From a virus (Duplodnaviria; Heunggongvirae; Uroviricota; Caudoviricetes), in the IMG/VR virus record IMGVR_UViG_2938655777_000006, positions 80,983 to 144,982 of that record: a DNA stretch of 64,000 bases; one strand, 5' to 3'. The first letter of the stretch is position 1. Every line of letters starts with the position of its first letter. Below are positions 40,367 to 64,000 of this stretch, piece after piece. Under the pieces are notes generated by a model, which was not told where the DNA came from, did no database searches, and was given only the letters and a program-made list of their open reading frames with translations. A program made the translations under genes and the position numbers.

Positions 40367-42562
40367 ATGGAGATGATACGTACGCAAGTTACTAAAAGAG
40401 ATGGTTCAGTTGTTGCGTTTAATCAACAAAAGATTGTTGATGCTATTTTCAAAGCAATGAGTAGAACAAAAAAAGGTATTGATAAGCAATTAGCAGCCAA
40501 TGTCACCAATGAAGTTGTAGCAATACTTAACAATGTAGCTAACATAGACATTGAAGCTATCCAAGATGCAGTAGTAGATGTTCTTATGCAAAGCGAGAGA
40601 AAAGATGTAGCCAAAGAGTACATAGGATATCGAGAAGTACGGAATCTGAAACGAAGAGAAAGAAGCAGCCTAGATAAAAAAGTATCTGGATTACTGGACA
40701 TGTCCAATGAGGAAGTATTAAAAGAAAACTCAAACAAAGATGGGCAGACGATTCCCACACAACGAGATCTTCTAGCAGGTATTATGGCAAAGGACTATGC
40801 TCAAGCTTATATGATGCCAAAACGAGTTGTTGAAGCTCACAATAGAGGAGATTTACATTTTCACGATCAAGATTATTCACCCTATTTTTCAATGACAAAC
40901 TGTATGTTGATTGATTTAAAGGGAATGTTGGAGAATGGATTTAAGCTTGGTAATGCTCAAATAGAAACTCCAAAATCTATTACAACAGCAGCGGCAGTTA
41001 CTGCACAAATTATTGCACAAGTAGCTAGTCATATCTACGGCGGTAACACAATTAATGAAATTGATAAGATCTTGGCTCCATATGTGAGAGCCTCATTTAT
41101 TAAACATTTTAGAGTGGGAATGAAATGGTTTGAGAGTAATCCAAACGATCATATACTTGAAAGCCAAGTGTATCCAGAAAGTTTAATCTTCAAGACCAGA
41201 TTTATAAAAGAATATAATTACGCGATTCAAATGACAGAAAAAGAGACATTGGATGCATTCCAATCACTTGAATATGAGATCAATACTTTGGTTTCCGCAA
41301 ATGGACAAACGCCTTTTTCAACCTTTGGTTTTGGGAGAGGGACAAGATGGGAAGAAAGACAGATACAAATTGCAATACTTAAAAATAGAATTAGAGGATT
41401 GGGCAAAGAAGGCAGTACTCCTATATTTCCAAAATTGATTTTTGCTCTAGAAGAAGGAGTTAATCTGAATCCCCAAGATATCAATTATGACATTAAGCAA
41501 CTAGCAATCAAATGTAGTACGTTGAGAATGTATCCTGATATCCTTTCAGTCCCAAAAGTTAAAGAAGTAACAGGTTCATTTAAGTTCCCGATGTCATGCC
41601 GCAGCTTTTTAAGTAAATACATAGAAAATAATGAAGAACTACATGATGGACGATTTAATATGGGGGTAGTGACTCTTAACTTGCCACGGATTGCAATTCG
41701 CGCAAAGAATAGTGAAGCAGAATTTTATAATCTATTGGATGATGAATTAGAAATTTGTAAAGAAGCGTTAATGTTTAGAATAAATCGCCTGAAGGGAGTC
41801 AAAGCAAAAGTTGCACCGATCCTCTATATGGAGGGAGCGGTAGGAGTCAGATTAAAGCCCGAAGATACAATTGACCAACTATTGGAAAATGACAGAGCAA
41901 GTATTTCACTTGGATACATAGGTCTACATGAAACCATATTGGCGTTATTTGAGAAACACATTTTTGATGACTCTTTTATGCATCAAAAAGGATTGAATAT
42001 TGTAAAATATCTTAGCGACAAAGCAAACAAATGGAAAAATGAAACTGGCTATGGGTTTAGTTTATATTCTACGCCAGCAGAATCGCTATGTTATCGTTTT
42101 TGTGAACTAGATAAGAACAAGTATGGTCTAATTAAAGGTGTTACTGACAAAGGATACTATACCAATTCGTTTCATTTAGATGTCAACAAAAAGGTAACGC
42201 CATTCGAAAAGATTGAGTTTGAAAAAGAATACCCTCAATATGCAAGTGGTGGTTTTATATCTTATTGTGAATTTGATTCATTAGTAAAAAATCCAGAAGC
42301 ATTAGAAGCTGTATGGGATTTTGCTTATGAGAGAGTACCGTACTTTGGAACAAATACTCCAGTAGACAAGTGTTATGAATGTGGGTATGAAGGAGAGTTT
42401 AAGGCAACAAATCAAGGCTTCAAGTGTCCAAATTGCAATAATAATGATCCCAAAACAAGTTCAGTCATAAGACGCTGCTGTGGTTATCTTTCAGAGCCTT
42501 CACAAAGACCTTTTAATAAAGGAAAGCAAAAAGAGGTTGTGTCGAGAGTGAAACATAACTAA
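40367..42562 (+). CDS. nrdD: anaerobic ribonucleoside-triphosphate reductase (class III RNR) NrdD
   Basis: N-terminal ATP-cone (IRTQVTKRDGSVVAFNQQKIVDAI), C-terminal Zn ribbon CYECGY...CPNCNN and glycyl-radical motif RRCCGYL. Confidence 0.7.
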   Translation: MEMIRTQVTKRDGSVVAFNQQKIVDAIFKAMSRTKKGIDKQLAANVTNEVVAILNNVANIDIEAIQDAVVDVLMQSERKDVAKEYIGYREVRNLKRRERSSLDKKVSGLLDMSNEEVLKENSNKDGQTIPTQRDLLAGIMAKDYAQAYMMPKRVVEAHNRGDLHFHDQDYSPYFSMTNCMLIDLKGMLENGFKLGNAQIETPKSITTAAAVTAQIIAQVASHIYGGNTINEIDKILAPYVRASFIKHFRVGMKWFESNPNDHILESQVYPESLIFKTRFIKEYNYAIQMTEKETLDAFQSLEYEINTLVSANGQTPFSTFGFGRGTRWEERQIQIAILKNRIRGLGKEGSTPIFPKLIFALEEGVNLNPQDINYDIKQLAIKCSTLRMYPDILSVPKVKEVTGSFKFPMSCRSFLSKYIENNEELHDGRFNMGVVTLNLPRIAIRAKNSEAEFYNLLDDELEICKEALMFRINRLKGVKAKVAPILYMEGAVGVRLKPEDTIDQLLENDRASISLGYIGLHETILALFEKHIFDDSFMHQKGLNIVKYLSDKANKWKNETGYGFSLYSTPAESLCYRFCELDKNKYGLIKGVTDKGYYTNSFHLDVNKKVTPFEKIEFEKEYPQYASGGFISYCEFDSLVKNPEALEAVWDFAYERVPYFGTNTPVDKCYECGYEGEFKATNQGFKCPNCNNNDPKTSSVIRRCCGYLSEPSQRPFNKGKQKEVVSRVKHN

Positions 42563-43065
42563 TGTACATAGCTGACTATAAAACATTTGATGTAATAAAC
42601 GGCATTGGTTTGAGACAGTCATTGTTTGTATCTGGATGCACTCACCATTGTAAAGGGTGCTTCAATGCTTCAGCATGGAATTCACACTATGGAATTAAAT
42701 ATACGGATGAATTAGAGAATAAGATTATCAGTGATTTGAAGATTGATTATGTACAAATAGCTGGATTATCAGTGTTAGGTGGTGAACCATTTCAAAGTAT
42801 TAATGGACTGCTACCACTTTTGAAACGAGTAAAGAATGAGTGTAAAGATAAGACAATTTGGATATGGTCGGGTTATACGTTTGAAGAAATTCTAAAAGAT
42901 AGTTCAAAGAAAGATATGTTATCTCTTTGCGATGTTTTAATTGATGGCAAATTTGAATTAAATAAAAAAGACTTAACTCTAAAATGGCGTGGTTCCAGTA
43001 ACCAAAGAGTTATCGATGTACAAAAGAGCCTAGAGCTACAGATGGCTATGCTGTTTGAGGATTGA
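42562..43065 (+). CDS. nrdG: anaerobic RNR activating enzyme NrdG (radical SAM)
   Basis: CxxxCxxC cluster SGCTHHCKGCFN; start overlaps nrdD stop (taATG). Confidence 0.65.
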   Translation: MYIADYKTFDVINGIGLRQSLFVSGCTHHCKGCFNASAWNSHYGIKYTDELENKIISDLKIDYVQIAGLSVLGGEPFQSINGLLPLLKRVKNECKDKTIWIWSGYTFEEILKDSSKKDMLSLCDVLIDGKFELNKKDLTLKWRGSSNQRVIDVQKSLELQMAMLFED

Positions 43066-43107
43066 TAATAATGGGCGGGCGGTAGGGCATAAGGAGGAGA
43101 TGTTCAT

Positions 43108-45435
43108 TTGACAAAAGTACTAAAAGACAGAAAAAGTTATACCCAACGATCAGATTTTGACCATGAAAGATTTGAACGTTTCTTCCACGAAATTGTTATG
43201 GATAGCGGCAAATCATTTGAAGAGAATGACTTGCAAGAGATGAAAGATAAAATCATCTCAGAAGTAGTGTCTAAGCAAGAAGTAAAAGCAGATTACTTGT
43301 TTGATTTGATTATTCGCGAATCAAACGATAGAATCAATCAATTCACACCACAATTTACCTACTTATCAGCTTCAACATTCAGACGTAAAAAATACAAAGA
43401 AGCTTCAAGAGAACGAGGATTCGACTACAAGGTTGGATATGGTGATTACTACACCCTTGTTAAAATGTTAACTGAAAAAGGAATATACTCAGAAGATATA
43501 TTGAACAGCTACAACAAAGATGAGATAGAATACGCTGGTGGATTTATTGACAGAGAAAGAGATCGAAAATTTAGCTACGCAGGTTTGTTCCTGTTTAACA
43601 AAAACTATTTGGCAAAAGGATACAATGAAGAAACCCTTGAGTTATTTCAAGAAAGATATCTAACATGTGCTCTTTATCTATTAAAAGACGAAGACAAAGA
43701 GAAGAGAATGGGTCTTGTTAAAGAAGCATATGATGTTTTAAGTCTTCATTTGGTGGGGCTTGCTACTCCAACGCTTGCTAATGCTGGTAGAGTAACTGGA
43801 ACTCTAAGTTCATGTCATATTATTACGATTGACGACAGTCTGCAAAGTATTATGGATGCAGTGAAAGACGCTTCAACATTTAGTCAGAATGGTGCTGGAT
43901 TGGGGATTTATCTTGGTCGTCTCAGATCTCATGGAAGTTGGATTCGTGGCTATAAAGGTCGATCTACTGGTGTAGTTGGCCCAGCTAAATTATTTAATGA
44001 AATTGCTACATACGTAAACCAACTCAATATGAGACCGGGTGGAGTAGCACTTTACCTACCATTATGGCACGCTGACATTTTTGACTTTCTAGATTTGAGA
44101 ATGAAAACTGGTTCACAGGAACGCAGAGCGCATTCCATTTTTACAGCAGTAAATGTACCCGATGAATTTATGCGTAGACTAAACGCACGAGACAATTGGA
44201 CTATATTTGATCCTTACGAAGTAAATAATAAACTCGGGATCGATATAAATAAATTGTATGACAAGAGAAAACTTCGTGACGGAGAAACACCAAACGAGAT
44301 AGATCATTCATTTACATACTACTATCGTGAGATTGAAAAAAATGACACCTTGGAATTGAAAAAAGTTGTTAAAGCAACTGATATCTATAAATCAATTTTT
44401 GAAGCTCAAAAAACTGGTGGTACACCTTACATGTATTATGTGGATACGGCTGCTCGTATGAATCCAAACAATCATGTAGGTATTCCGATTTCTTCTAATC
44501 TTTGCTCAGAGATTGTTTTAAACTGCGATTATGATGAATTTGTGAGCAAGGAGTTAAGTGAAGACGGTGTAGTAACTGAAAAGAAGAAAGGTTCTGGACT
44601 GGTAACTTGTAATCTAAGTTCCATTTCATTACCTGCCGTATTCGGTAATGATAATGTAGACCTTCAAAAAGTAATTGATATTCAATTTCGTCTATTAGAC
44701 AACGTAATTTCGTTGAATCGCACAGTTGTTGAACAAGCAACCCATACGAACAATATTTATCGTAGTGTGGGTGCTGGAGCTATGGGGCTAGCAAATCTCT
44801 TAGCAGAGAAAGGAATTCGATGGGAATCCGAAGCTGCTTCAGAATACGTAAAAGAAATTTTTGAAAAGTTAAACTATGCTCATATTCTTGCTAGTCATAA
44901 ACTAGCAGTGGAAAAAGGGTCATATAAGATGTATGAGGGTTCTGACTGGAATACAGGCGAATACTTTGAAAAGAGAAACTACAATTCCCCTGAATGGCTA
45001 GAACTAAAACAAATGGTTATGCAACAAGGAATTAGAAACGGTAATTTGAGTTGCGTTGCTCCTACTGGATCTAATAGTCTAATCAACAATGTCTTTGCTT
45101 CTCTAGATGCACCATATGAAGTAATCTTCCAAGAAGAAAAACAGGGAATGAATGTAACAGTTATTCCTGCAAACTATAGCGCTAAAACTAAATGGTACTA
45201 TAAATCAGGATTTGAGATGGATGAATTGTGGTCGCTGAAGATTGTTGCTGCGGCTCAAAAGGGAATAGATCAATCCATTTCTCATAATGTTATGGTGCAT
45301 GAATCAGTTAAAGCTAGTGAGATGTTGAAAATCCACACATTCGCTTGGGATTCTGGATGCAAATCTTTGTATTATACATATGTAGATAAAAATTCGGTAA
45401 ATAGAAAAGAAAACTGTGAGTCTTGTGCTGGATAA
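43108..45435 (+). CDS. nrdE: class Ib ribonucleotide reductase alpha subunit NrdE
   Basis: Active-site ISSNLCSEIVL, catalytic-loop regions; TTG start 7 nt after AAGGAGGAGA; C-terminal CESC pair. Confidence 0.7.
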   Translation: MTKVLKDRKSYTQRSDFDHERFERFFHEIVMDSGKSFEENDLQEMKDKIISEVVSKQEVKADYLFDLIIRESNDRINQFTPQFTYLSASTFRRKKYKEASRERGFDYKVGYGDYYTLVKMLTEKGIYSEDILNSYNKDEIEYAGGFIDRERDRKFSYAGLFLFNKNYLAKGYNEETLELFQERYLTCALYLLKDEDKEKRMGLVKEAYDVLSLHLVGLATPTLANAGRVTGTLSSCHIITIDDSLQSIMDAVKDASTFSQNGAGLGIYLGRLRSHGSWIRGYKGRSTGVVGPAKLFNEIATYVNQLNMRPGGVALYLPLWHADIFDFLDLRMKTGSQERRAHSIFTAVNVPDEFMRRLNARDNWTIFDPYEVNNKLGIDINKLYDKRKLRDGETPNEIDHSFTYYYREIEKNDTLELKKVVKATDIYKSIFEAQKTGGTPYMYYVDTAARMNPNNHVGIPISSNLCSEIVLNCDYDEFVSKELSEDGVVTEKKKGSGLVTCNLSSISLPAVFGNDNVDLQKVIDIQFRLLDNVISLNRTVVEQATHTNNIYRSVGAGAMGLANLLAEKGIRWESEAASEYVKEIFEKLNYAHILASHKLAVEKGSYKMYEGSDWNTGEYFEKRNYNSPEWLELKQMVMQQGIRNGNLSCVAPTGSNSLINNVFASLDAPYEVIFQEEKQGMNVTVIPANYSAKTKWYYKSGFEMDELWSLKIVAAAQKGIDQSISHNVMVHESVKASEMLKIHTFAWDSGCKSLYYTYVDKNSVNRKENCESCAG

Positions 45436-45499
45436 ATGATGAAATAGAAGAGAGGACTGTCTCTCTCTTCTTAATAATTTGTAGATAGGATGATGAGTA

Positions 45500-46525
45500 T
45501 TGGCTTTTAGAGTATTTAACGGAGAAGTGAATAATAAAGCAACCAAGATTTTTGGTGGTGAGGCAAGCGGTATATGTGATTGGGATGATATCAAATATCC
45601 TCATATGCTGACTCTGTATAAAGAATTATTTGGTAATTATTGGATTGAAGATGAGATTAGGCTTACTTCCGACCTTAAGCAATACCGTGACGGCCTAACA
45701 GAAAAAGAAAGATATACTTATAACGTTGTAACGGGAATGTTGACATCATTGGATTCTGTAGCTAATCGCTTTAATTTTACAATTGGGCATACCTGTACAG
45801 ATCCAAGTGTTGCAGCAGTCATCCAAATCATTGGTGCTTTTGAGGGATTACATGCTAGATCATATCAGTACTTAACTTCAACCATGCTTAACTCTGAACA
45901 AAAGAAACAGGCATTTAATGCGCCAAAAGAAATTCCGCTATTGCGAAAAAGAAACGATATCATTTTTAAAAAGATTCAAAACTTTATTGACGATCCAACC
46001 AACTTGGAAAAACTATATCATGCACTGCTTGCAAACTTAGTGCTCGAAGGTGTATTTTTCACCGGGGCATTTGTTTACTTTAATTCTCTTGCACGTTCAA
46101 ACAGAATGATTGGCTCCAATAACATGGTCAATCTCATTAAAACTGATGAGAATTTTCATTCGGTCTTTTATGGAGATGTAATGAAGATTCTGATGTTGGA
46201 AAACCCCGAATTAAATACTGAATTGAATCACAAAGAAGCTGTATCTTTTATCAAATCATGTGTAGAAAAAGAAAAAGAGTGGGCAGAATATATTTTTGAA
46301 GGAATAGATACGTTGTCTGTTCCAGAATATAAAGATTACGTTGAATATCTTGCAAATGTTATTTGTAGAAATGCTGGTATTCAAGAAGTTTATCCAGACA
46401 ATAAAGAACTGAAATCAAAATGGATTATTACCTATGGCTCAAAAGGTGGTAATACAAAAAGTGATTTCTTCCAAACGAATGTAATTTCATATGGACATGA
46501 AAGCGGCGATGGATTTGACCTATAA
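45500..46525 (+). CDS. nrdF: class Ib ribonucleotide reductase beta subunit NrdF
   Basis: Di-metal ligand motifs (EGLHARSY, ENFHSVF), ferritin-like fold; TTG start. Confidence 0.7.
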   Translation: MAFRVFNGEVNNKATKIFGGEASGICDWDDIKYPHMLTLYKELFGNYWIEDEIRLTSDLKQYRDGLTEKERYTYNVVTGMLTSLDSVANRFNFTIGHTCTDPSVAAVIQIIGAFEGLHARSYQYLTSTMLNSEQKKQAFNAPKEIPLLRKRNDIIFKKIQNFIDDPTNLEKLYHALLANLVLEGVFFTGAFVYFNSLARSNRMIGSNNMVNLIKTDENFHSVFYGDVMKILMLENPELNTELNHKEAVSFIKSCVEKEKEWAEYIFEGIDTLSVPEYKDYVEYLANVICRNAGIQEVYPDNKELKSKWIITYGSKGGNTKSDFFQTNVISYGHESGDGFDL

Positions 46526-49860: not shown

Positions 49861-49877
49861 AAATAATGAAATACATA

Positions 49878-49906
49878 TATACAAAAATAATTAAATATGA
49901 TAATAT
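49878..49906 (+). promoter_or_regulatory. promoter, TATACA-17-TGaTAATAT (extended -10) with upstream TAATGAAATA element
   Basis: Same architecture and ~27/30-nt shared upstream sequence as promoter at 59062; predicted +1 falls inside left arm of the terminator hairpin. Confidence 0.4.
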
Positions 49907-49908
49907 GA

Positions 49909-49939
49909 GTACAGGTTAAATCAAGCCTGTACTTTTTTT
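49909..49939 (+). terminator. rho-independent terminator
   Basis: GTACAGG-ttaaatcaag-CCTGTAC followed by TTTTTTT, 49 nt after DHFR stop. Confidence 0.5.
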
Positions 49940-49981
49940 ATTAGGAGGTTGATAGTTTGAAAGAGTTGGCAAGGGAAGGAA

Positions 49982-50503
49982 GTGAAGAGTACGCTTTTCT
50001 TCATAACAAACATTGTACCTACGATCATATTGGGATTAATGATGAGGTATGGTCGTCGAATATTCAAAGAAGATTTTTCTCAAATAAATTCAAAATTAAA
50101 TAGAGAATCAATCTTCAATTCATTTTGTTTTGCCATTATGGGCTTCTCGATTATATCAAAATTATCTTCATTAGTGGTAGCACAGCAACCAGTAACACCG
50201 CATATTCAAACACCGATTATGTATGTGTATGCCATAGCATTTAGTCCTGTTTTTGAAGAATTAATTTGTAGAAAGTATATATTCACGAAACTACATAAAC
50301 GCTACAACTTTTGGCTGTCAGCAATTTTAAGTTCCATCATATTTGCAATTCCACACTTTAACGCAGTTAATTTTATAGCATACGTGTTTATTGGAATTGT
50401 ATGGAGTTGGTATTATAAAAAGACAGATAACATCCTAGTACCAATATTCAGCCATTTATTATTTAATTACTTCGTCATTTTATTTATGTCACTGAGAGGA
50501 TGA
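49982..50503 (+). CDS. CPBP (CAAX protease/Abi) family intramembrane metalloprotease
   Basis: Motifs EELICRKYIF (EExxxR), FAIPHF (FxxxH), HLLFN (HxxxN) in multi-TM protein; GTG start; strong SD AGGAGG at 49943 instead serves an out-of-frame TTG 49957. Confidence 0.5.
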   Translation: MKSTLFFITNIVPTIILGLMMRYGRRIFKEDFSQINSKLNRESIFNSFCFAIMGFSIISKLSSLVVAQQPVTPHIQTPIMYVYAIAFSPVFEELICRKYIFTKLHKRYNFWLSAILSSIIFAIPHFNAVNFIAYVFIGIVWSWYYKKTDNILVPIFSHLLFNYFVILFMSLRG

Positions 50504-56228: not shown

Positions 56229-56870
56229 ATGATTAACAAGACATTAAATTATAAAAGAGATCCTAGCTTGAACAACGAAGAGATGATTAAAGAAGCAAAA
56301 CTAACTAACAATAAAGAACTTAGGGATAAGATTATAAATAACAATATTCCTTTTGTTAAAAGCCTAGCTGACCGTTGGTATAAGCGTGGAGTCCCAGAAG
56401 AGTTTGATGATTTATTAGGCATGGGAATGGTAGCACTAATGAAGGCTTACTATACATATGACACGAATAAGAATATTAAATTTGCCTCATATCTTGGAAA
56501 AGTAGTATGGAAAGAATTTATGGCACATTCTAGGTACAAAAGCATGAAATGTCGTAGCAAATACTCCAGTATTAGTTTCAATGAAACTCTTCATAAAACA
56601 AAAGGAACAGTCGAAGAAAAGCTGCTTGCTGAAGTTATTCCTAATGACAGTCACTTAGATTATCTGACAGTTGAAGATGAGATGTTCAATACACATTTAG
56701 TCGAACAAATGGATGGATTGTTGGCGAAAAAGGAGAGAATTGTTGCTGACAAATACTTTTTCGAAGGGAAAAGCATATCGGAAATTGGGGTTGAACTTGG
56801 TGTGTCGCGTCAGGCAGCGCATCAAGCTTTTCAAAGAACGATTAAGAGGCTAACGCCAATATATACATAA
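56229..56870 (+). CDS. sigma-70-family RNA polymerase sigma factor (phage-encoded)
   Basis: Region 2-like FDDLLGMGMVALMKAYYTYD; region 4.2 HTH SISEIGVELGVSRQAAHQAFQRTIKRL. Confidence 0.6.
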   Translation: MINKTLNYKRDPSLNNEEMIKEAKLTNNKELRDKIINNNIPFVKSLADRWYKRGVPEEFDDLLGMGMVALMKAYYTYDTNKNIKFASYLGKVVWKEFMAHSRYKSMKCRSKYSSISFNETLHKTKGTVEEKLLAEVIPNDSHLDYLTVEDEMFNTHLVEQMDGLLAKKERIVADKYFFEGKSISEIGVELGVSRQAAHQAFQRTIKRLTPIYT

Positions 56871-58267: not shown

Positions 58268-58393
58268 ATGAACAATAAAAAGGACACAAAGCAAATTACA
58301 GATGAACAATATGCAAAATACATAAGCAAACTTTGGCAGTGGCAAATAAACAGCAGTACAGAATATTATCAATCGGAGGACGATCACTTTTGA
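58268..58393 (+). CDS. small hypothetical protein (41 aa)
   Basis: Hand-translated MNNKKDTKQITDEQYAKYISKLWQWQINSSTEYYQSEDDHF; RBS catGGAGattATG. Confidence 0.3.
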   Translation: MNNKKDTKQITDEQYAKYISKLWQWQINSSTEYYQSEDDHF

Positions 58394-58408
58394 TGATCAA
58401 TAATACAT

Positions 58409-58864
58409 ATGAAATTTCTAAACCAAAATGATATTTTTCAAATTTTAAAGAAGTCTCTCAAGAAGCATTATGGCAATTTCACGAGCGAACCCAAGATTGA
58501 AATTGATGTTGATGTAATGACTAGTAAATATGATTTTTATTCGAGAAAAATTAGTTTTAGTGGAAAGATTGTATCTTTTAAATATAGTGAGGAAATCTAT
58601 AAGAGAAGACTTACTTTGAAAGAAATTGAGGGAATGATTGAATTAGAGTTAGGTGGAGAAGTAAATGTTGCAGCATACATAAATGAGATTGAAGAAGTCT
58701 TAACAAGAGATAGTTACAATAACCACACTGTTTTAGTAGCTACAGTGACAAACGAAAAACTTTCATTAGATAAAGATTGCATCATGACTTTAATTGACAT
58801 AGCTATTGATATGAACGATAAAGAGTGGTTTATTGAGCTAACAAATAAATATAATCAATTATGA
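58409..58864 (+). CDS. hypothetical protein (151 aa)
   Basis: ORF in track. Confidence 0.4.
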   Translation: MKFLNQNDIFQILKKSLKKHYGNFTSEPKIEIDVDVMTSKYDFYSRKISFSGKIVSFKYSEEIYKRRLTLKEIEGMIELELGGEVNVAAYINEIEEVLTRDSYNNHTVLVATVTNEKLSLDKDCIMTLIDIAIDMNDKEWFIELTNKYNQL

Positions 58865-59019
58865 ATTAAACTAACGTTTGACGACATCAAGAATGTAAAT
58901 TATATCAAGAATAATGAGTAGAACTACATTGATACATATATAAAACTCAATGTTTATAAGGGTTTTTCGATAGTAATTTCTACGTAAAATCCTGATTTTA
59001 TTCATTGCTCAATACTACT

Positions 59020-59103
59020 CTTATAGGATCTAAATATTATATAAATAAATATAATGAAATATATACAAAATAATAAAGCCGTGATATAATCATCTTATAG
59101 GAT
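59020..59103 (+). repeat. 11-bp exact direct repeat TCTTATAGGAT flanking the promoter (candidate operator/centromere-like iterons)
   Basis: Copies at 59020-59030 and 59093-59103; additional ATCAAGAAT x2 at ~58893-58920. Confidence 0.4.
59062..59090 (+). promoter_or_regulatory. promoter, TATACA-17-TGaTATAAT (extended -10)
   Basis: TATACA 59062-67, TG 59082-83, TATAAT 59085-90; upstream TAATGAAATA element shared with 49878 promoter; ~75-nt leader to ParM-like gene. Confidence 0.45.
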
Positions 59104-59172
59104 GTATTACATTGTACGACACTGTTGAGCTACTGTCATACTTTGATACTCATTGTATTTGGAGGTAATATC

Positions 59173-60138
59173 ATGGCTTTAACTGTAGTGAAAAATTTAA
59201 GTGTGATTGATCTCGGATTTAGCTACACCAAGGGGAAAACAGGCAATACAATGTATCTTCAGCCTTCTATCTCCGGCGATGTTCAACCAATGTTTGAAGA
59301 AAACATCAAACCAAATGATTTTTTCTATAACGACGAATTATTTGTAGGGAATGTCGCCCTAAGGCACAGTGAGATTAAATATTTCACACTTAAAAATAAT
59401 AAGAGTGAAGCGATGACTTCTGACGTTTTGCTGAAAACTGGATTAGGATATTTAAATAAAAACAACCCATTTAATATGGTAACTGGACTACCTGTATTAT
59501 TCTATTTCAATCAAAAAAGTGATATGGAAAAGATGTTGGATCGAATAAACAGAGAGGATGCTTACAGCCTTAAGAAAGGCAGGGGAAATTATTCAGAAAT
59601 TAAACTTCATATAAATAAATATAAACTTGTTCCACAGGGATATGGCATAGCTATGGATTATCTGCTAGACAATAAAGGAAAGATCCAAAAAGTACATATT
59701 GCAAATAAAAAGGTATTGGTAATTGACTTAGGATTCTATACGTTAAACCTTTTGGGTTTAGATAAACTAGAAATAATGAAAGAATCAACAAGCCTTCTTT
59801 TGGGTGTTGAAAAGGCATATCAGTTATTGCGTAAGTACTTAATGAATGCTATAGGCAAGGCTCCAGCTATTTATGAACTGGACAAGTATGTGATAAGCGG
59901 TATATACGAAGGACGAAATATAAAACCATTAATAGCAAAAGCATTTAAATCACTAGCGATCCAAATTCAAAATGAGGTTGACGGACTAAATATAAATTTT
60001 GATTATTATCTAATTGGTGGAGGTGCAGCACATCAGATTTATAACACACTTAACTTCAAGAATAAAGTACTTTTCGATCAGCTTTCACAAATAAGAGGGT
60101 ATGAAAAAATTGGAGTTAGAGCATGGGGAAGAAACTAG
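59173..60138 (+). CDS. actin-like ATPase, ParM/Alp (StbA) family
   Basis: Phosphate-1 VIDLGFSYTK, phosphate-2 VLVIDLGFYTLNL, adenosine YYLIGGGAA, collinear with ParM; ATG 59173 7 nt after GGAGG. Confidence 0.55.
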   Translation: MALTVVKNLSVIDLGFSYTKGKTGNTMYLQPSISGDVQPMFEENIKPNDFFYNDELFVGNVALRHSEIKYFTLKNNKSEAMTSDVLLKTGLGYLNKNNPFNMVTGLPVLFYFNQKSDMEKMLDRINREDAYSLKKGRGNYSEIKLHINKYKLVPQGYGIAMDYLLDNKGKIQKVHIANKKVLVIDLGFYTLNLLGLDKLEIMKESTSLLLGVEKAYQLLRKYLMNAIGKAPAIYELDKYVISGIYEGRNIKPLIAKAFKSLAIQIQNEVDGLNINFDYYLIGGGAAHQIYNTLNFKNKVLFDQLSQIRGYEKIGVRAWGRN

Positions 60139-60401
60139 TTAGCGCAAGACTCAGAAACGGAAAGGATGATGACCTCAAAATAGCACTGAGTAAACTTCCT
60201 ATATATTATGATGAGAGCGACATCGTAAGAGAAGCGCTGAGACAGTTCTTATTTGGACACAAGGGTAGAAAACCTGAAATATTAGGGAGCAAAGTTGTAA
60301 TTGATGATGAACTTGTTGTAAATAAAGAAGAATTAGAAGAGGTTGATTTTATATCTCAATCAGATCTCGATAAAAGCTTAGATGATTTTATAGGGACTTG
60401 A
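60123..60401 (+). CDS. ribbon-helix-helix (CopG/Arc-like) DNA-binding protein, ParR/adaptor-like
   Basis: N-terminal beta-strand + helices KKLVSARLRNGKDDDLKIALSKL...SDIVREALRQFL; overlaps ParM-like stop. Confidence 0.45.
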   Translation: MGKKLVSARLRNGKDDDLKIALSKLPIYYDESDIVREALRQFLFGHKGRKPEILGSKVVIDDELVVNKEELEEVDFISQSDLDKSLDDFIGT

Positions 60402-60584
60402 GTAGGCTTCGGCCTACAATACATAAAATGAGGAAAGCTACAAGGATTAAAATCAAAATTAAACTGAATATCTGAGGTTCTAAGTGAATAAGTGTTATGT
60501 TAATGGCATTAAATATTTGATAAAACATATCAGCATGTCATAGCCCATATTAGGCATATACTGTCTCAACGAGAGGTGATTACT

Positions 60585-61559
60585 GTGGATGAAAACTCCA
60601 GAAGGATTACTGTTAATGAATCAAGAATTAATGTTGTCTTTAAAAGTCAAGAAGCTTATGAAACAATATCTGAGCAAAACGAAGAAGTTCCATTAACCAG
60701 TAATCATTACGAATCCGCAGCAGACATATTTAAGGATTTAGACGAAATGATTGGCCTTGAAAAGGTAAAAGATCTTGTGTATGAGATTTATGCATTGATA
60801 CAGGTGCAAAAACTTAGAAGTGAAGAAGGTTTGAAAAATAGTAGTCAGGTATACCATATGATATTCAAAGGAAATCCCGGTACAGGGAAGACGACAGTGG
60901 CAAGAATAGCTTCTAAATTGCTAAACAGAATGGGCATCCTTAGTAAAGGTCATCTGATTGAGGTGGAACGAGCAGACTTAGTTGGAGAATACATCGGTCA
61001 CACCGCACAAAAAACACGAGATCTTGTTAAGAAAGCTATGGGAGGAATCCTTTTTATCGATGAAGCCTACAGTTTGGCTAGGGGAGGTGATAAAGATTTT
61101 GGAAAGGAAGCAATAGACTGTCTTGTAAAAGTCATGGAGGATAGAAGTGATGATTTAATAATTATCCTTGCAGGCTATCCAGATGAGATGGGGATGTTCC
61201 TTAGAACAAATACTGGTCTTCCATCCCGGTTTCCAATACAAATAGATTTTCAGGATTACACAACAGATGAGTTAATGTTAATTGCAGTAAAGATGGCATA
61301 TGAAAAAGACTACAACATTACCTCTGATGCACTGATAAAACTAAGAGAAATAATTCAGATTGAGAAAGACTCAAGAAGTAATTTTAGTAATGCACGCTAT
61401 GTTCGTAACGTGATTGAAAAAGCGATTCGGCACCAAGCTGTCAGAATAATGAGTAGACGTGTAAAAATCTCTAAGCAAAATTTAATGGATATTTTGCCAC
61501 GAGATATATCAAATTCAAATATTGAAATGAATAAAAGAGAGTCTGTCATAATGCCATAA
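60585..61559 (+). CDS. AAA+ ATPase, SpoVK/CbbX-like
   Basis: Walker A GNPGTGKTT, Walker B ILFIDEAYSL, sensor/arginine-finger region; GTG 60585 5 nt after GAGAGGTGA. Confidence 0.6.
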   Translation: MDENSRRITVNESRINVVFKSQEAYETISEQNEEVPLTSNHYESAADIFKDLDEMIGLEKVKDLVYEIYALIQVQKLRSEEGLKNSSQVYHMIFKGNPGTGKTTVARIASKLLNRMGILSKGHLIEVERADLVGEYIGHTAQKTRDLVKKAMGGILFIDEAYSLARGGDKDFGKEAIDCLVKVMEDRSDDLIIILAGYPDEMGMFLRTNTGLPSRFPIQIDFQDYTTDELMLIAVKMAYEKDYNITSDALIKLREIIQIEKDSRSNFSNARYVRNVIEKAIRHQAVRIMSRRVKISKQNLMDILPRDISNSNIEMNKRESVIMP

Positions 61560-61576
61560 ATTAAAATGTATTTGTC

Positions 61577-61633
61577 CATAAAGAACAATCATACTTATTC
61601 AACTTAGCAGAAATCCATTGATTGTTCTTTATG
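61577..61633. repeat. perfect 15-bp inverted repeat (cataaagaacaatca / tgattgttctttatg) with 27-nt loop
   Basis: 18 nt after AAA-ATPase stop; no U-run; followed by strong SD AAGGAGGTGA (61651-60) and a 9-codon GTG uORF (61664-61693). Confidence 0.4.
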
Positions 61634-61752
61634 AAGCCTTATAAATATTAAAGGAGGTGAGAGGTGCAAAGTGTTCATATAGGATTTAATTAAAATCAAT
61701 ATTTTATAGGAAAGCGAGGTAAGCAACAATAGATAACTATGTAATTTATCAC

Positions 61753-64000
61753 TTGCATTCTGATGATAGTAATCCATCGACATCAATGGCTGTAGACTCA
61801 GTTACTAAATTTAAACAATACATAGACGCAGCAGAGCAAGCACAGATGAGTACAATTTGTTTTTCAGAACATGGGAACGTGTTTAACTGGGTTAAAAAGA
61901 AACAAACAATTGAAGAAAAAGGTATGAAATATATCCATGCCAACGAAGTGTATCTAACTGAACATAACGACAGAGAACGAGGATTAATTCGAGACAATTT
62001 CCACTACATGCTTATAGCCAAAAATTGGGACGGTGTAAAAGAGCTAAATCGATTAACCTCTATATCTAACAATAAAGAAGATGGGCATTATTATTACAAT
62101 CCAAGATTAACATTCGATGAGTTATTTAATACTTCAGACAATATCATTATGACATCTGCATGTTTAGCTTCACCACTATGGAGAGCAATAAAAAACGATA
62201 ACAAACAGATGTACAACCGACTAATGGATTTCTTCATGAAAAACAAACATCGGATGTTCTTTGAAATTCAGTATCATACACATCCTGAACAAAAGTCGTT
62301 TAATCAGCACTTATACAACATTTCTAAAGAGACTGGAATTCCACTTATTGCTGGAACGGATACACATGCACTTAATCAAGCTCATGCAGAAGCCAGAACC
62401 ATTCTTATGAGAGCAAAGGGTGCTACATATGGAGACGAAGACACTTTTGATTTAACATTCAAAACTTATCCCGAATTAGTTAAAATGTTTGAGGAACAAA
62501 ATTCAATACCAAGAAGTGCTTACCTTGAAGCAATTCATAATACGAATGTTATGGCGAACATGATAGAAGAATTTACGATCGATTCATCTCCAAAGTACCC
62601 AAAACTATATGATGATCCAGAAAAAGTTTTTAAGGAAAAGATAAATGTTGGTGTAGTTGAAAGAGGAGTAAACAAGTTTGAAGCAGAAAAGAAACATCGT
62701 TATTTTAAAAGAATTAGAGAAGAGTTTGATACATATAAGAAAGTTGGAGCAATTGATTATATGCTGCTTCAAAAAGATGTGGTCGATTGGGCGCATAAAA
62801 ATGGGATATATCAAGGATATGGACGTGGTTCTGTAAACGGAAGCTTGATCGCCTATCTATTGAAGATTACAGAGATGGATAGTATTAAGCATAAGCTAAA
62901 TTTCTTTCGCTTCCTGAATCCAGAGCGCATTTCACTCGCTGATATAGATTTAGACTGGCCTCCTTCAAAGAGACAAGATGTAATTGACTATGTAGCAACT
63001 ATTCCGGGTATTTACTTCTCTGAAATTATAACTTTTAATACGGTGGCTTTAAAAGGAGCAATAAGAGAAGTTGGTAGGGCGCTCAATATGGATTTATCAG
63101 TTGTAGATGGAATCGCAAAGGCTGTTTTTAAAAATGATAACAGGAAAGATGAAATCGATAAGCAATACCGCGAAAGCTATCCTGATTTATTTAAATATGT
63201 AGACTTGGTTCAAGGAGTTATTGTAAGCATAGGATCACATCCGTCTGGATATGTAGTTTCACCTATAAGTCTGCAAGATAATATAGGATTATGTTACACA
63301 AAAGAAAGTAAATATCCTGTGAGCCAGATTAATATGAAAGAGCTTGATAGCCTTAACTATGTCAAGCTTGATATTTTAGGTTTAGATAATATTGAAATCA
63401 TCAATGAAACTTGTAAGTTAGCGAATATTCCTCGTTTAGTCCCTGACAATATGAACGTAGATGACGAAGAAGTTTGGAGTTCTATTAGAGAGTCAGGCTT
63501 AGGAGTTTTTCAATGGGAGTCAACAAGTGCTGGAGCATATTTAAAAGACTTGTTGAGTCCTGAAACAATAAAAAGAATAAAAGAACAATACCCGAATTTC
63601 AGCTATATCCAATTGTTCTCAATTGGAAATGCTGCCATTCGTCCTTCTGGAGCTTCGTACAGAAATGATTTATCGCAGGGGATATTTAAAGATCATGGAT
63701 ATGATGCATTAAACGCTCATCTGAAGAGTACACTTGGATATCTTATATTTCAAGAATCAATAATGCAGTTCTTGGTAGACTTTTGTGACTTTACAATGCC
63801 TGAAAGCGATTCTGTTCGACGAGGGATGAGTAAAAAAGAGGGTACGGAAAAAGAGCTTCCAAAGATAAGAAAAAGGTTTATTGAGAAGCTAATGCGCGAT
63901 TACAGTGAGACCGAAGAAGCAGCTACTGCCGTCCTTGAACCATTTATTCAAGTTATCATAGATGCTAAAGATTATGGCTTCTCTGACAACCACTCAAACC
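61753..64000 (+). CDS. dnaE: DnaE-like DNA polymerase III alpha subunit (3'-partial, continues past window); start uncertain
   Basis: PHP YHLHSDDS, GRGSVNGSLIAYLL, catalytic ADIDLDW, GSHPSGYVVS, LDILGL, IFQESIMQ, RRGMSKK; frame opens at 61723, only in-frame candidates ATA 61729 (8 nt after GAGGT), ATT 61744, TTG 61753. Confidence 0.6.
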   Translation, partial: MHSDDSNPSTSMAVDSVTKFKQYIDAAEQAQMSTICFSEHGNVFNWVKKKQTIEEKGMKYIHANEVYLTEHNDRERGLIRDNFHYMLIAKNWDGVKELNRLTSISNNKEDGHYYYNPRLTFDELFNTSDNIIMTSACLASPLWRAIKNDNKQMYNRLMDFFMKNKHRMFFEIQYHTHPEQKSFNQHLYNISKETGIPLIAGTDTHALNQAHAEARTILMRAKGATYGDEDTFDLTFKTYPELVKMFEEQNSIPRSAYLEAIHNTNVMANMIEEFTIDSSPKYPKLYDDPEKVFKEKINVGVVERGVNKFEAEKKHRYFKRIREEFDTYKKVGAIDYMLLQKDVVDWAHKNGIYQGYGRGSVNGSLIAYLLKITEMDSIKHKLNFFRFLNPERISLADIDLDWPPSKRQDVIDYVATIPGIYFSEIITFNTVALKGAIREVGRALNMDLSVVDGIAKAVFKNDNRKDEIDKQYRESYPDLFKYVDLVQGVIVSIGSHPSGYVVSPISLQDNIGLCYTKESKYPVSQINMKELDSLNYVKLDILGLDNIEIINETCKLANIPRLVPDNMNVDDEEVWSSIRESGLGVFQWESTSAGAYLKDLLSPETIKRIKEQYPNFSYIQLFSIGNAAIRPSGASYRNDLSQGIFKDHGYDALNAHLKSTLGYLIFQESIMQFLVDFCDFTMPESDSVRRGMSKKEGTEKELPKIRKRFIEKLMRDYSETEEAATAVLEPFIQVIIDAKDYGFSDNHSN

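What the first reader, a model, noticed from the sequence alone, without database searches (positions are those of the whole stretch)
58865..60401. Actin-like ParM/Alp ATPase + RHH protein cassette with direct repeats bracketing its promoter
ORF 59173..60138 carries ParM-type nucleotide-binding motifs. The overlapping downstream ORF is an Arc/CopG-like RHH, ParR-like. Exact 11-bp repeats TCTTATAGGAT sit at 59020 and 59093, on either side of the -35/-10. Further ATCAAGAAT repeats lie upstream. This is the architecture of an autoregulated type II partition locus (parC-parM-parR). A plasmid-segregation-type cytomotive system in a phage with a lytic-style genome suggests either plasmid-prophage maintenance or positioning of phage DNA during infection.
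Basis: partly seen in the sequence, partly recalled or inferred. Interest (0 to 1): 0.55.

Follow-up and report, generated by a model that had tools for sequence, protein, structure and literature searches.

The report
Prophage actin-like filament and adaptor cassette
A large Paenibacillus prophage carries a two-gene module, an actin-like filament ATPase plus a small DNA-binding adaptor, of the kind plasmids use to move their DNA.

Summary
The two genes are real. ORF 59173-60138 is a ParM/Alp-family actin-like ATPase: Pfam ALP_N scores 70 bits against a 26-bit cut-off, and the AlphaFold model best matches solved ParM structures (TM 0.8). ORF 60123-60401 overlaps its stop codon in 17 of 17 related loci. 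It has a ParR-like layout: an N-terminal ribbon-helix-helix (RHH) domain, supported only through relatives (32 of 75 hit Pfam RHH_1), then an acidic linker and a conserved C-terminal helix.

The exact 11-mers exist, at 59019 (not 59020) and 59093, and they flank a conserved sigma-A-type promoter. They are not iterons. An exact repeat of 11 bp or longer arises in 7.4% of shuffles. The upstream copy lies in a segment missing from close relatives, and the promoter-proximal copy differs by one base in the nearest relatives. No repeat array was found.

Three elements are conserved instead: a near-palindromic CTTATARG box at the predicted start site, RTACA boxes in the leader, and a covarying hairpin plus ATACATA just after the adaptor gene.

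The host element is not "lytic-style". It is a temperate prophage integrated in spoVK by a large serine recombinase. Homologous pairs also occur in virulent SPO1-like phages. The likely role is therefore positioning of replicating phage DNA, as for AlpAC of prophage CGP3, not plasmid-style lysogeny.

The parts
58886..58912 (+). Two exact ATCAAGAAT 9-mers (58886-58894 and 58904-58912). They are probably not part of the system.
   Evidence: 5 copies in the window against 2.04 expected. The region does not align with any related locus.
58942..59001 (+). Conserved non-coding block upstream of the promoter. It includes an invariant 23-mer, TCTACGTAAAATCCTGATTTTAT, with the inverted repeat AAAATC-CT-GATTTT at 58986-58999. 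It appears to descend from the 3' end of an IDEAL-domain gene. Its function is unknown.
   Evidence: Invariant in 7 loci and recognisable in L026, whose Alp is 61% identical. It has no true second copy in the window. In L017, L022, L023 and L024 the homologous sequence is the end of the upstream ORF.
59019..59029 (+). Upstream copy of TCTTATAGGAT. It is specific to the closest clade and may be an accessory box or a chance match.
   Evidence: The segment is absent in L010/L014/L006/L011 and mutated in L002 (TCATGTAGGAT). The shuffle test gives 7.4%.
59062..59090 (+). Sigma-A-type promoter: -35 TATACA (59062-59067), 17-nt spacer, extended -10 TGATATAAT (59082-59090).
   Evidence: Best-scoring promoter-like site in the region. 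It is conserved in position and sequence in all 16 Paenibacillus loci. The window holds only one other promoter of this class, at 49878-49906.
59093..59103 (+). Promoter-proximal TCTTATAGGAT. Its core, CTTATAGG (59094-59101), is a conserved near-palindromic box 3-4 nt after the -10, so it is centred on the predicted transcription start. It is a candidate operator for the RHH protein.
   Evidence: A box of the form YTTATARG, TCTATAGA or CTTATGGG sits at the same position in all 16 loci. It is absent from the sister promoter at 49878.
59097..59172 (+). 5' leader of about 75 nt with RTACA/TGTAY boxes at 59102, 59112 and 59153, and a Shine-Dalgarno GGAGG at 59161-59165.
   Evidence: RTACA pentamers total 54 against 12.1 expected in the promoter-leader regions of 14 loci, compared with other intergenic DNA of the same loci. 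The motif was chosen post hoc. No consensus RNA fold was found and there is no Rfam hit.
59173..60138 (+). alp: ParM/Alp-family actin-like ATPase, 321 aa.
   Evidence: Pfam ALP_N 2.6e-19, PHROG 691 9e-39, AlphaFold2 pLDDT 89.7, Foldseek top hits Dh-cParM1, pCBH ParM and pSK41 ParM.
60123..60401 (+). Adaptor gene (92 aa), translationally coupled to alp. Residues 1-46 are the RHH domain (60123-60260), followed by an acidic linker. The C-terminal helix is SDLDKSLDDFIG (residues 79-90, 60357-60392).
   Evidence: It overlaps the alp stop in 17 of 17 loci. Conservation pattern. AlphaFold2 helices at 16-23, 31-44 and 79-90. RHH support through relatives. hhalign against pSK41 ParR gives E 8e-4 in register. 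The C-terminal motif is shared with SPO1 gp27.8, CP-51 gp95, the KKP_3916 partner and vB_BboS-125 gp18.
60402..60425 (+). Conserved 3' element: hairpin GTAGGC-TTCG-GCCTAC (60402-60417) followed by the invariant ATACATA (60419-60425). It is probably the 3'-end hairpin of the transcript. The ATACATA is a candidate adaptor-binding box.
   Evidence: Present directly after the adaptor stop codon in all Paenibacillus loci, with five different stem sequences and G.U pairs. Free energy is -10 to -13 kcal/mol with z-scores of -2.8 to -5.0 in 10 of 10 loci. It is unique in the window. Three GIY-YIG genes carrying an adaptor-like RHH domain are inserted right after it.

Best explanation
This is a self-contained, phage-borne type II (actin-like) DNA-positioning module. 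It lies in the replication gene block of a large SPbeta-like temperate prophage of Paenibacillus.

A conserved sigma-A-type promoter drives a bicistronic transcript. The first product is a ParM/Alp-family ATPase, inferred to polymerise into filaments. The second is a translationally coupled ParR-like adaptor. Its N-terminal ribbon-helix-helix dimer is inferred to bind phage DNA in or next to its own operon. Its conserved acidic C-terminal helix is inferred to dock onto the Alp filament.

Binding at the box on the transcription start would also repress the operon. After induction or infection, the adaptor-DNA complex would couple replicating phage genomes to growing filaments and so position or spread them. 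This is what was shown for AlpC/AlpA of prophage CGP3. It would not be used to keep a plasmid-like prophage.

Shown here: gene identities, operon anatomy, conservation, the integrated state of the element, and occurrence in virulent phages. Inferred: polymerisation, DNA binding and its sites, autoregulation, and the cargo.
For: - Alp identity: Pfam ALP_N 70.3 bits (cut-off 26.3), PHROG 691, PDB ParM hits. The AlphaFold2 model has pLDDT 89.7. Foldseek gives Dh-cParM1 at E 1e-19 (TM 0.80), then pCBH, pSK41, R1 and Bt ParM, Alp12, Alp7A and AlfA, all ahead of MreB and Hsp70.
- Adaptor linkage: the gene overlaps the alp stop in 17 of 17 loci and has a tripartite conservation pattern.
- RHH support: 32 of 75 family representatives hit Pfam RHH_1 (best 6e-8). 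The top 8 PDB hits of the family profile are all RHH proteins, with CopG-family regulators at 0.004 and NikR at 0.012. The alignment to pSK41 ParR (2q2k) is in register at E 8e-4.
- C-terminal motif: the [DE]L[DE]xxL[DS] motif is shared with the partners of Alp genes in SPO1, CP-51, KKP_3916 and vB_BboS-125, even though their N-terminal domains have diverged.
- The RHH domain is a portable DNA-binding module. It forms the C-terminus of three GIY-YIG nucleases, all inserted right after the cassette.
- Context: the promoter and start-site box are conserved in 16 loci. The neighbours are DnaB, primase, ligase, RecJ, ribonucleotide reductases (RNR) and PolIII alpha.
- Lifestyle: the element is integrated in spoVK beside a large serine recombinase. 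Relatives occur in 158 phage records, including virulent SPO1-like phages, but in only 18 plasmids.
- Precedent: AlpAC of CGP3 (PMC4446434).
Against: - No centromere-like repeat array was found.
- The window adaptor itself hits no family model, and its monomer model is poor (pLDDT 60).
- The candidate binding boxes (CTTATARG, RTACA, ATACATA) were chosen post hoc. The -35 TATACA is also found in a second, unrelated promoter at 49878.
- Nothing here shows polymerisation, DNA binding or an effect on phage DNA.
- Homology to AlpC/AlpA was not tested.
Confidence: 0.6

Rival explanations
1. It is a classical parC-parM-parR partition locus. It stably inherits the phage as a low-copy plasmid prophage, and the two 11-bp repeats are the centromere iterons.
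For: The gene pair and its order match plasmid type II loci. The repeats flank the promoter, as the iteron clusters of R1 parC do (established knowledge). Several relatives sit on contigs of 164-177 kb that are wholly viral and could be episomes.
Against: The window's own element is integrated in spoVK next to a large serine recombinase, inside a 406-kb chromosomal contig. A close relative lies in a 6.2-Mb contig. The repeats are not significant (7.4% of shuffles), number only two, and are not conserved as a pair. Virulent phages carry homologous pairs. Plasmid relatives are rare and distant.
Confidence: 0.1
2. The Alp filament acts on something other than phage DNA, for example by scaffolding a replication or assembly zone or by altering the host cytoskeleton or cell shape. 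The RHH protein would then be mainly a transcriptional autoregulator or a filament modulator.
For: There is no detectable centromere array. A single conserved box at the start site is what a simple autorepressor needs. Cb-cParR acts as a depolymerisation factor, and chromosome-encoded ParMs have unknown roles (PMC12270681). Alp7R nucleates Alp7A without DNA (bioRxiv 10.1101/098954).
Against: A conserved C-terminal partner motif combined with a DNA-binding domain is the adaptor architecture. The one phage system studied by experiment links DNA to filaments.
Confidence: 0.2
3. The small ORF is an RHH antitoxin or an unrelated regulator that merely neighbours alp.
For: The best single PDB hit of the first profile was a CopG/Arc/MetJ-family antidote, 5ceg. 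Some relatives hit VapB_antitoxin weakly.
Against: No toxin gene lies beside it. It overlaps the alp stop in 17 of 17 loci, and analogous partners follow alp in four other phages. It also carries a C-terminal motif that co-occurs with Alp.
Confidence: 0.04

Closest known systems
AlpC/AlpA/alpS of Corynebacterium glutamicum prophage CGP3 (Donovan et al. 2015, PMC4446434; PMC5539076)
   Same: Both are carried by an integrated prophage. Both pair an actin-like ATPase with a co-transcribed small DNA-binding adaptor, and both lie close to a prophage end. The proposed role, coupling excised and replicating phage DNA to filaments, is the same.
   Different: The host phylum differs. In CGP3 the operon is called alpAC, whereas here alp comes first. 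alpS consists of 24 short TTAAnnG repeats in the promoter region, and no such array was detected here. Sequence homology to AlpC/AlpA was not tested.
Plasmid type II partition systems with RHH adaptors: pSK41 ParM/ParR (3js6, 2q2k), R1 ParMRC, pLS20 Alp7A/Alp7R/alp7C
   Same: The order is ParM-type ATPase followed by RHH adaptor, with the promoter upstream. The adaptor has an N-terminal RHH and a C-terminal filament-binding tail. pSK41 ParM is among the top structural matches, and pSK41 ParR aligns in register.
   Different: Those systems have clear iteron centromeres: 10 x 11 bp in R1 and 4 x 20 bp in pSK41 (both from established knowledge), and nine repeats in alp7C. They also ride on plasmids. 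Here no array was found and the replicon is an integrating phage. Alp identity to plasmid ParMs is 27% or less.
Genome-encoded ParMs, cParMR cassettes (Dh-cParM1 8x1i, Cb-cParCMR; J Biol Chem 2025, PMC12270681)
   Same: Dh-cParM1 is the closest solved structure (TM 0.80). These cassettes are also chromosomal, with a downstream RHH ParR, and occur in Firmicutes. In the Cb system the figure legend places the centromere after parR, although the text places it upstream.
   Different: That paper never mentions phage or prophage (0 occurrences) and leaves the function open. Here the cassette is demonstrably inside a prophage replication module.
Alp genes of Bacillus phages annotated 'partition protein' (PHROG 691; SPO1 gp27.9/gp27.8, CP-51 gp96/gp95, vB_BboS-125 gp17/gp18)
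   Same: They belong to the same Alp clade (26-46% identity). Each has an overlapping or adjacent small partner with an RHH-like N-terminus and the same C-terminal [DE]L[DE]xxL[DS] motif.
   Different: None has been studied by experiment as far as the held literature shows. SPO1 and CP-51 are virulent myoviruses. Their partner proteins fall in different PHROGs of unknown function.

Membership tests
ParM/Alp actin-like ATPases (Pfam ALP_N / ParM-StbA) | Actin-fold ATPase with phosphate-1, phosphate-2 and adenosine motifs, scoring above the family threshold | tested here: met
   ALP_N scores 70.3 bits against a 26.3-bit cut-off. D13-L14-G15...K20, D185-L186-G187..T190 and G283-G284 are invariant or nearly so in 29 homologues.
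ParM/Alp actin-like ATPases (Pfam ALP_N / ParM-StbA) | Fold closer to ParM-type proteins than to MreB, Hsp70 or sugar kinases | tested here: met
   In the Foldseek search ranks 1-28 are ParM, Alp, AlfA or Ta0583 at E 1e-19 to 1e-10. MreB and Hsp70 start at rank 29 at about 1e-9. The closed beta-barrel subdomain was not inspected separately.
ParM/Alp actin-like ATPases (Pfam ALP_N / ParM-StbA) | Nucleotide-dependent polymerisation into filaments | not testable with these tools
   This needs light scattering, electron microscopy or imaging.
ParR-type RHH adaptors | N-terminal ribbon-helix-helix DNA-binding domain | tested here: met
   The evidence is indirect. The window protein alone hits no model, and its monomer model has pLDDT 60 with two helices of the right length. 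However, 32 of 75 family representatives hit RHH_1 (best 6e-8), and the 8 best PDB hits of the family profile are RHH proteins. A dimer model was not run.
ParR-type RHH adaptors | Detectable homology to characterised ParR proteins | tested here: inconclusive
   hhalign against pSK41 ParR gives E 8e-4 at 25% probability, in register. Against pB171 ParR it gives E 0.11.
ParR-type RHH adaptors | C-terminal peptide that binds the ParM filament | not testable with these tools
   A conserved C-terminal amphipathic acidic helix exists and is shared across phage Alp partners.
Type II partition locus (parC-parM-parR) | Cis-acting centromere made of multiple iterated repeats next to the operon | tested here: not met
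   There are only two 11-mers. They are not significant and not conserved. An 8-mer repeat search gave the expected best counts in most of the 17 loci (the exceptions, L002 and L026, were AT-rich promoter-like words), and no tandem array lies near the cassette. Dispersed short boxes remain possible.
Type II partition locus (parC-parM-parR) | Carried on a low-copy extrachromosomal replicon whose inheritance it ensures | tested here: not met
   The element is integrated in spoVK beside a large serine recombinase, in a 406.5-kb contig identical to the window.
AlpAC-type phage DNA-positioning system (CGP3) | Prophage-encoded Alp co-transcribed with a DNA-binding adaptor, near a prophage end | tested here: met
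   Operon anatomy. The recombinase and host junction lie about 7 kb downstream.
AlpAC-type phage DNA-positioning system (CGP3) | Sequence homology to AlpC/AlpA, and alpS-type TTAAnnG repeats | not tested

The most novel reading that the evidence does not exclude
Bacillales phages, temperate and virulent alike, may share a dedicated actin-like cytoskeleton. Its adaptors would be defined by a common C-terminal [DE]L[DE]xxL[DS] docking motif. At least in the Paenibacillus prophages, the DNA target would not be an iteron array. It would be a few short boxes bracketing the operon: a start-site palindrome, and the invariant ATACATA next to a covarying 3' hairpin. A family of GIY-YIG homing endonucleases would have captured the adaptor's RHH domain in order to home to that same site.
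Probability: 0.25. Interest if true: 0.55.

Novelty: new member of a known kind. Interest (0 to 1): 0.33.

Why it matters
Actin-like partition genes in phage genomes are routinely annotated 'partition protein', but only CGP3 AlpAC has been studied. This locus adds four points.

- The Alp-adaptor pair is a conserved, separately transcribed module of large integrating Paenibacillus prophages, next to the phage DNA polymerase.
- The same pair, with the same adaptor tail motif, is present in virulent SPO1-like phages. That argues for a role in lytic replication, not in lysogenic inheritance.
- At least some of the 'genome-encoded ParMs' recently described as enigmatic could be prophage cargo.
- It gives concrete DNA elements to test as the centromere.

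This is incremental, not surprising.

Tried and rejected
- Megablast of the cassette against phage records found no match.
- tblastn of the adaptor against plasmids found no match.
- Pfam, PHROG and NCBIfam scans of the adaptor alone found nothing.
- Foldseek of the low-confidence adaptor monomer gave one meaningless hit.
- Rfam on 58300-61900 at E up to 1 gave no hit.
- RNAalifold on 14 leaders predicted 0 pairs, because the leaders are too diverged to align. A conserved leader RNA structure is therefore neither shown nor excluded.
- A search for iterons (8-mers, up to 1 mismatch, both strands, against shuffles) found no array. Only two loci beat their shuffles, with AT-rich -10-like words.
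- Tandem Repeats Finder found nothing near the cassette.
- I asked whether the 3' ATACATA is the -35 of a downstream promoter. No -10 lies at a suitable spacing in any locus (reading), so I rejected this.
- I asked whether the 58942-59001 block encodes a peptide. There is no conserved ORF (reading).
- I checked whether FADO-type phages, the closest by PolIII alpha, carry alp next to dnaE. They do not.
- The output was invalid, because alignment files overwrote locus records in my script. One search replaces it.
Full report
**What is at the coordinates.** The region holds two co-oriented, overlapping ORFs. ORF1 runs from 59173 to 60138 (321 aa). It starts at an ATG seven bases after a GGAGG, and that start is the one conserved in relatives. 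ORF2 runs from 60123 to 60401 (92 aa). It begins 16 nt before the ORF1 stop and has its own GGAG. The best sigma-70-like site in the area is TATACA (59062-59067), a 17-nt spacer and TGATATAAT (59082-59090). The exact 11-mer TCTTATAGGAT occurs at 59019-59029 and 59093-59103, so it does lie on either side of that promoter. ATCAAGAAT occurs at 58886 and 58904.

**ORF1 is a ParM/Alp-type actin-like ATPase.**
- It scores 70.3 bits on Pfam ALP_N against a 26.3-bit cut-off, and 9e-39 on PHROG 691 'partition protein'.
- By sequence, the best solved relatives are the Clostridium botulinum pCBH ParM (4e-9) and Dh-cParM1.
- A model built on 29 homologues has pLDDT 89.7.
- In the Foldseek search of the PDB, ranks 1-28 are ParM-type proteins: Dh-cParM1 (TM 0.80), pCBH, pSK41, CorM, Ta0583, Bt-ParM, R1 ParM, Alp12, Alp7A and AlfA. 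MreB and Hsp70 start only at rank 29, with E-values ten orders of magnitude weaker.
- The nucleotide-binding motifs are invariant or nearly so in the family.

Polymerisation itself cannot be tested here.

**ORF2 is a ParR-like adaptor, but the evidence is indirect.**
- On its own it matches nothing in Pfam, PHROGs, NCBIfam or the PDB.
- Its monomer model is poor (pLDDT 60). It shows helices at residues 16-23 and 31-44, preceded by an unstructured N-terminus, and a third helix at 79-90. That is the layout of a ribbon-helix-helix (RHH) domain, whose strand forms only in the dimer.
- A homologous small ORF overlaps the alp stop codon in 17 of 17 loci examined.
- The family alignment has three parts: a conserved N-terminal 50 residues (ARLRxxKDxDL..LP..D.SD[IV]VREALR), a variable acidic linker, and a conserved C-terminal [DE]L[DE]xxLDxF[IL].
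- An exhaustive HMMER search of 1.84 billion representatives found only 88 relatives. Of the 75 scanned, 32 hit Pfam RHH_1 (best 6e-8), and others hit RHH_3, RHH_8, RHH_9 or 56B_RHH.
- The eight best PDB matches of the wider family profile are all RHH proteins. CopG-family regulators score 0.004-0.006 and NikR scores 0.012.
- Against pSK41 ParR the family profile aligns in register over helix A, the loop and helix B, at E 8e-4 but only 25% probability. I checked my recalled pSK41 ParR sequence against 2q2k first. Against pB171 ParR the result is E 0.11.

I therefore accept an RHH fold and a ParR-like architecture. I treat homology to characterised ParRs as unproven.

**The repeats are not a centromere.**
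- An exact direct repeat of 11 bp or more appears in 370 of 5000 dinucleotide-preserving shuffles of the 308-bp AT-rich intergenic region.
- With one mismatch allowed, the 11-mer has three hits in the window against 2.1 expected.
- In an alignment of seven related upstream regions, the upstream copy lies in a roughly 45-nt segment that is simply absent from L010, L006 and L011, although their promoters and adaptors are nearly the same.
- In the nearest relatives (L002, L008, L009, L010, L029) the promoter-proximal copy reads TCTTATAGAAT. In L002 the upstream copy reads TCATGTAGGAT. The exact identity of the two copies is thus peculiar to this genome.
- The ATCAAGAAT region aligns with no relative.
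- A search for any repeated 8-mer (one mismatch, both strands) in the 17 upstream regions found no array. Only two loci beat their shuffles, with AT-rich -10-like words. Tandem Repeats Finder found nothing nearby.

**What is conserved instead.**
1. The promoter itself is conserved, with its unusual TATACA or TGTACA -35 and its extended -10, in all 16 Paenibacillus loci down to 54% Alp identity.
2. A near-palindromic box lies 3-4 nt after the -10, so it is centred on the predicted start site. It reads CTTATAGG here, CTTATAAG in L016 and TCTATAGA in L022. The promoter-proximal 11-mer is part of this box. The only other promoter of the same class in the window (49878-49906) lacks it. The box is therefore specific to this operon, and it is the best candidate operator.
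3. RTACA/TGTAY pentamers are enriched in the promoter-leader region. The 14 loci hold 54 against 12.1 expected from other intergenic DNA of the same loci, and still 40 after removing one -35 instance per locus. This motif was chosen post hoc and the loci are related, so I give it little weight.
4. Immediately after the adaptor stop codon lies a hairpin (60402-60417, GTAGGC-TTCG-GCCTAC), followed by an invariant ATACATA (60419-60425).
   - Across loci the stem has five different sequences with compensatory changes and two G.U pairs.
   - All ten tested loci fold at -10 to -13 kcal/mol, with z-scores of -2.8 to -5.0.
   - The element is unique in the 64-kb window and has no U-tract.
   - The G.U pairs point to an RNA-level hairpin on the sense transcript, probably a 3'-end or stability element.
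5. A 60-nt block upstream of the promoter (58942-59001) is more conserved than expected for non-coding DNA. It seems to derive from the 3' end of an IDEAL-domain gene. I cannot explain it.

**A clue to where the adaptor binds.** Three diverged GIY-YIG endonuclease genes carry a copy of the adaptor's RHH domain at their C-terminus, without the acidic tail. They are P0115 in L014, P0121 in L034 and P0116 in L035, and they are 56-62% identical to the adaptor over that domain. All three are inserted directly after the hairpin-ATACATA element. GIY-YIG homing enzymes such as I-TevI bind through their C-terminal domain close to their insertion site (established knowledge). This shows the domain is a portable DNA-binding module. 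By inference only, it suggests that its target lies at the 3' edge of the cassette, where ATACATA is the only invariant sequence.

**What carries the cassette.**
- The window is identical, with 0 mismatches in 13,828 bases, to a 406.5-kb contig of a Paenibacillus assembly, GCA_011066295.1.
- All large ORFs of the window are on one strand and G+C is 33%.
- They encode DnaB, primase, ligase, RecJ, NrdD, NrdEF, a sigma factor, YopX and PolIII alpha. PolIII alpha is 62% identical to that of large Bacillus siphoviruses.
- About 7 kb downstream of the cassette come a large serine recombinase, then a 90-aa C-terminal fragment of spoVK, then hflX and a Met-gamma-lyase gene. That is the host spoVK neighbourhood.
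- The element is therefore a temperate prophage integrated into spoVK. This site is already reported for the SPbeta-like phage Goe14 (bioRxiv 10.1101/2021.11.22.469490).
- The gene right after the cassette (60576-61559) is an intact SpoVK paralogue. It scores 406 bits on TIGR02881 and is 50% identical to the host fragment.

**Distribution.**
- Relatives of the Alp occur in 158 phage records, 155 of them Bacillus phages. Among 72,556 plasmids only 18 carry a relative, all at 27% identity or less.
- The phage hits include virulent SPO1-like and CP-51-like myoviruses.
- In SPO1, CP-51, Alicyclobacillus phage KKP_3916 and vB_BboS-125, the gene after alp encodes a small protein with three features: an RHH-like N-terminus, a low-complexity linker and the same C-terminal motif. 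The motif reads DLDKALDN in SPO1, DLDKALS in CP-51, ELEEKLD in KKP_3916 and LEGDLDT in vB_BboS-125.
- A tail motif that stays constant while the DNA-binding domain diverges is what one expects of the filament-docking peptide.

**Mechanism and comparison.** The best-supported reading is a phage version of a type II system that acts during replication after induction or infection. This is what was shown for AlpC/AlpA of prophage CGP3. There the adaptor binds repeats in its own promoter, links circular phage DNA to filaments, and is needed for full replication (PMC4446434).

Two facts argue against plasmid-type inheritance as the main role: the element is integrated, and the pair is present in virulent phages. 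That role is not excluded for relatives found on contigs of 164-177 kb that are wholly viral.

The locus fails two defining features of a classical parC-parM-parR locus, the iteron centromere and the extrachromosomal replicon. I therefore file it as working like a ParMR system, not as a member of the plasmid family. The closest solved structure, Dh-cParM1, comes from a study of 'genome-encoded ParMs' that does not consider prophages (PMC12270681).

**Verdict.** The genes are real and correctly recognised. The centromere claim does not hold, and the genome is temperate, not lytic-style. The system is a new member of a known kind. Interest is modest.

Noticed in passing
L028:16193-19597, about 7 kb downstream of window position 60401 on the same contig; also window 60576-61559: The prophage is integrated into the host spoVK gene. 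A large serine recombinase (574 aa) is followed by a 90-aa C-terminal SpoVK fragment, then hflX and a Met-gamma-lyase gene. The phage itself encodes an intact SpoVK paralogue right after the alp cassette, 50% identical to the host fragment. This paralogue might compensate for the disrupted host gene.
   Followed up: partly
L014:5283-5810, L034:1106-1612, L035:224-745: Three GIY-YIG endonuclease genes have a C-terminal domain that is a copy of the adaptor's RHH domain. Each is inserted immediately after the cassette's hairpin-ATACATA element. Their RHH domain resembles the L022/L024-type adaptors more than the neighbouring adaptor.
   Followed up: partly
window 49865-49945: This is the second and only other promoter of the TATACA-N17-TGnTAnnAT class in the window, and it has the same AATGAAATA...TATACAAAA upstream sequence. 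It is followed at once by a terminator-like hairpin (GTACAGG...CCTGTAC plus a T7 run) just before the Shine-Dalgarno of ORF 49982-50503. It could be an attenuator or a small RNA.
   Followed up: no
window 58942-59001: This non-coding block is more conserved than the flanking genes. It has an invariant 23-mer containing the inverted repeat AAAATC-CT-GATTTT. It looks like a relic of the 3' end of an IDEAL-domain gene, and its function is unknown.
   Followed up: partly
window 56229-56870: The phage encodes a sigma factor (Sigma70_r2 domain, 213 aa) about 2.3 kb upstream of the cassette.
   Followed up: no
window 61638-61711: Three boxes resembling the 11-mer core lie in the intergenic region upstream of the PolIII alpha gene: CCTTATAAAT, TCATATAGGAT and TTTTATAGGAA. 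They are not conserved in L002, where PolIII directly follows the cassette.
   Followed up: partly
window 40367-46525: The phage carries both an anaerobic (NrdD, 731 aa) and an aerobic (NrdE/NrdF) ribonucleotide reductase in the same gene block.
   Followed up: no
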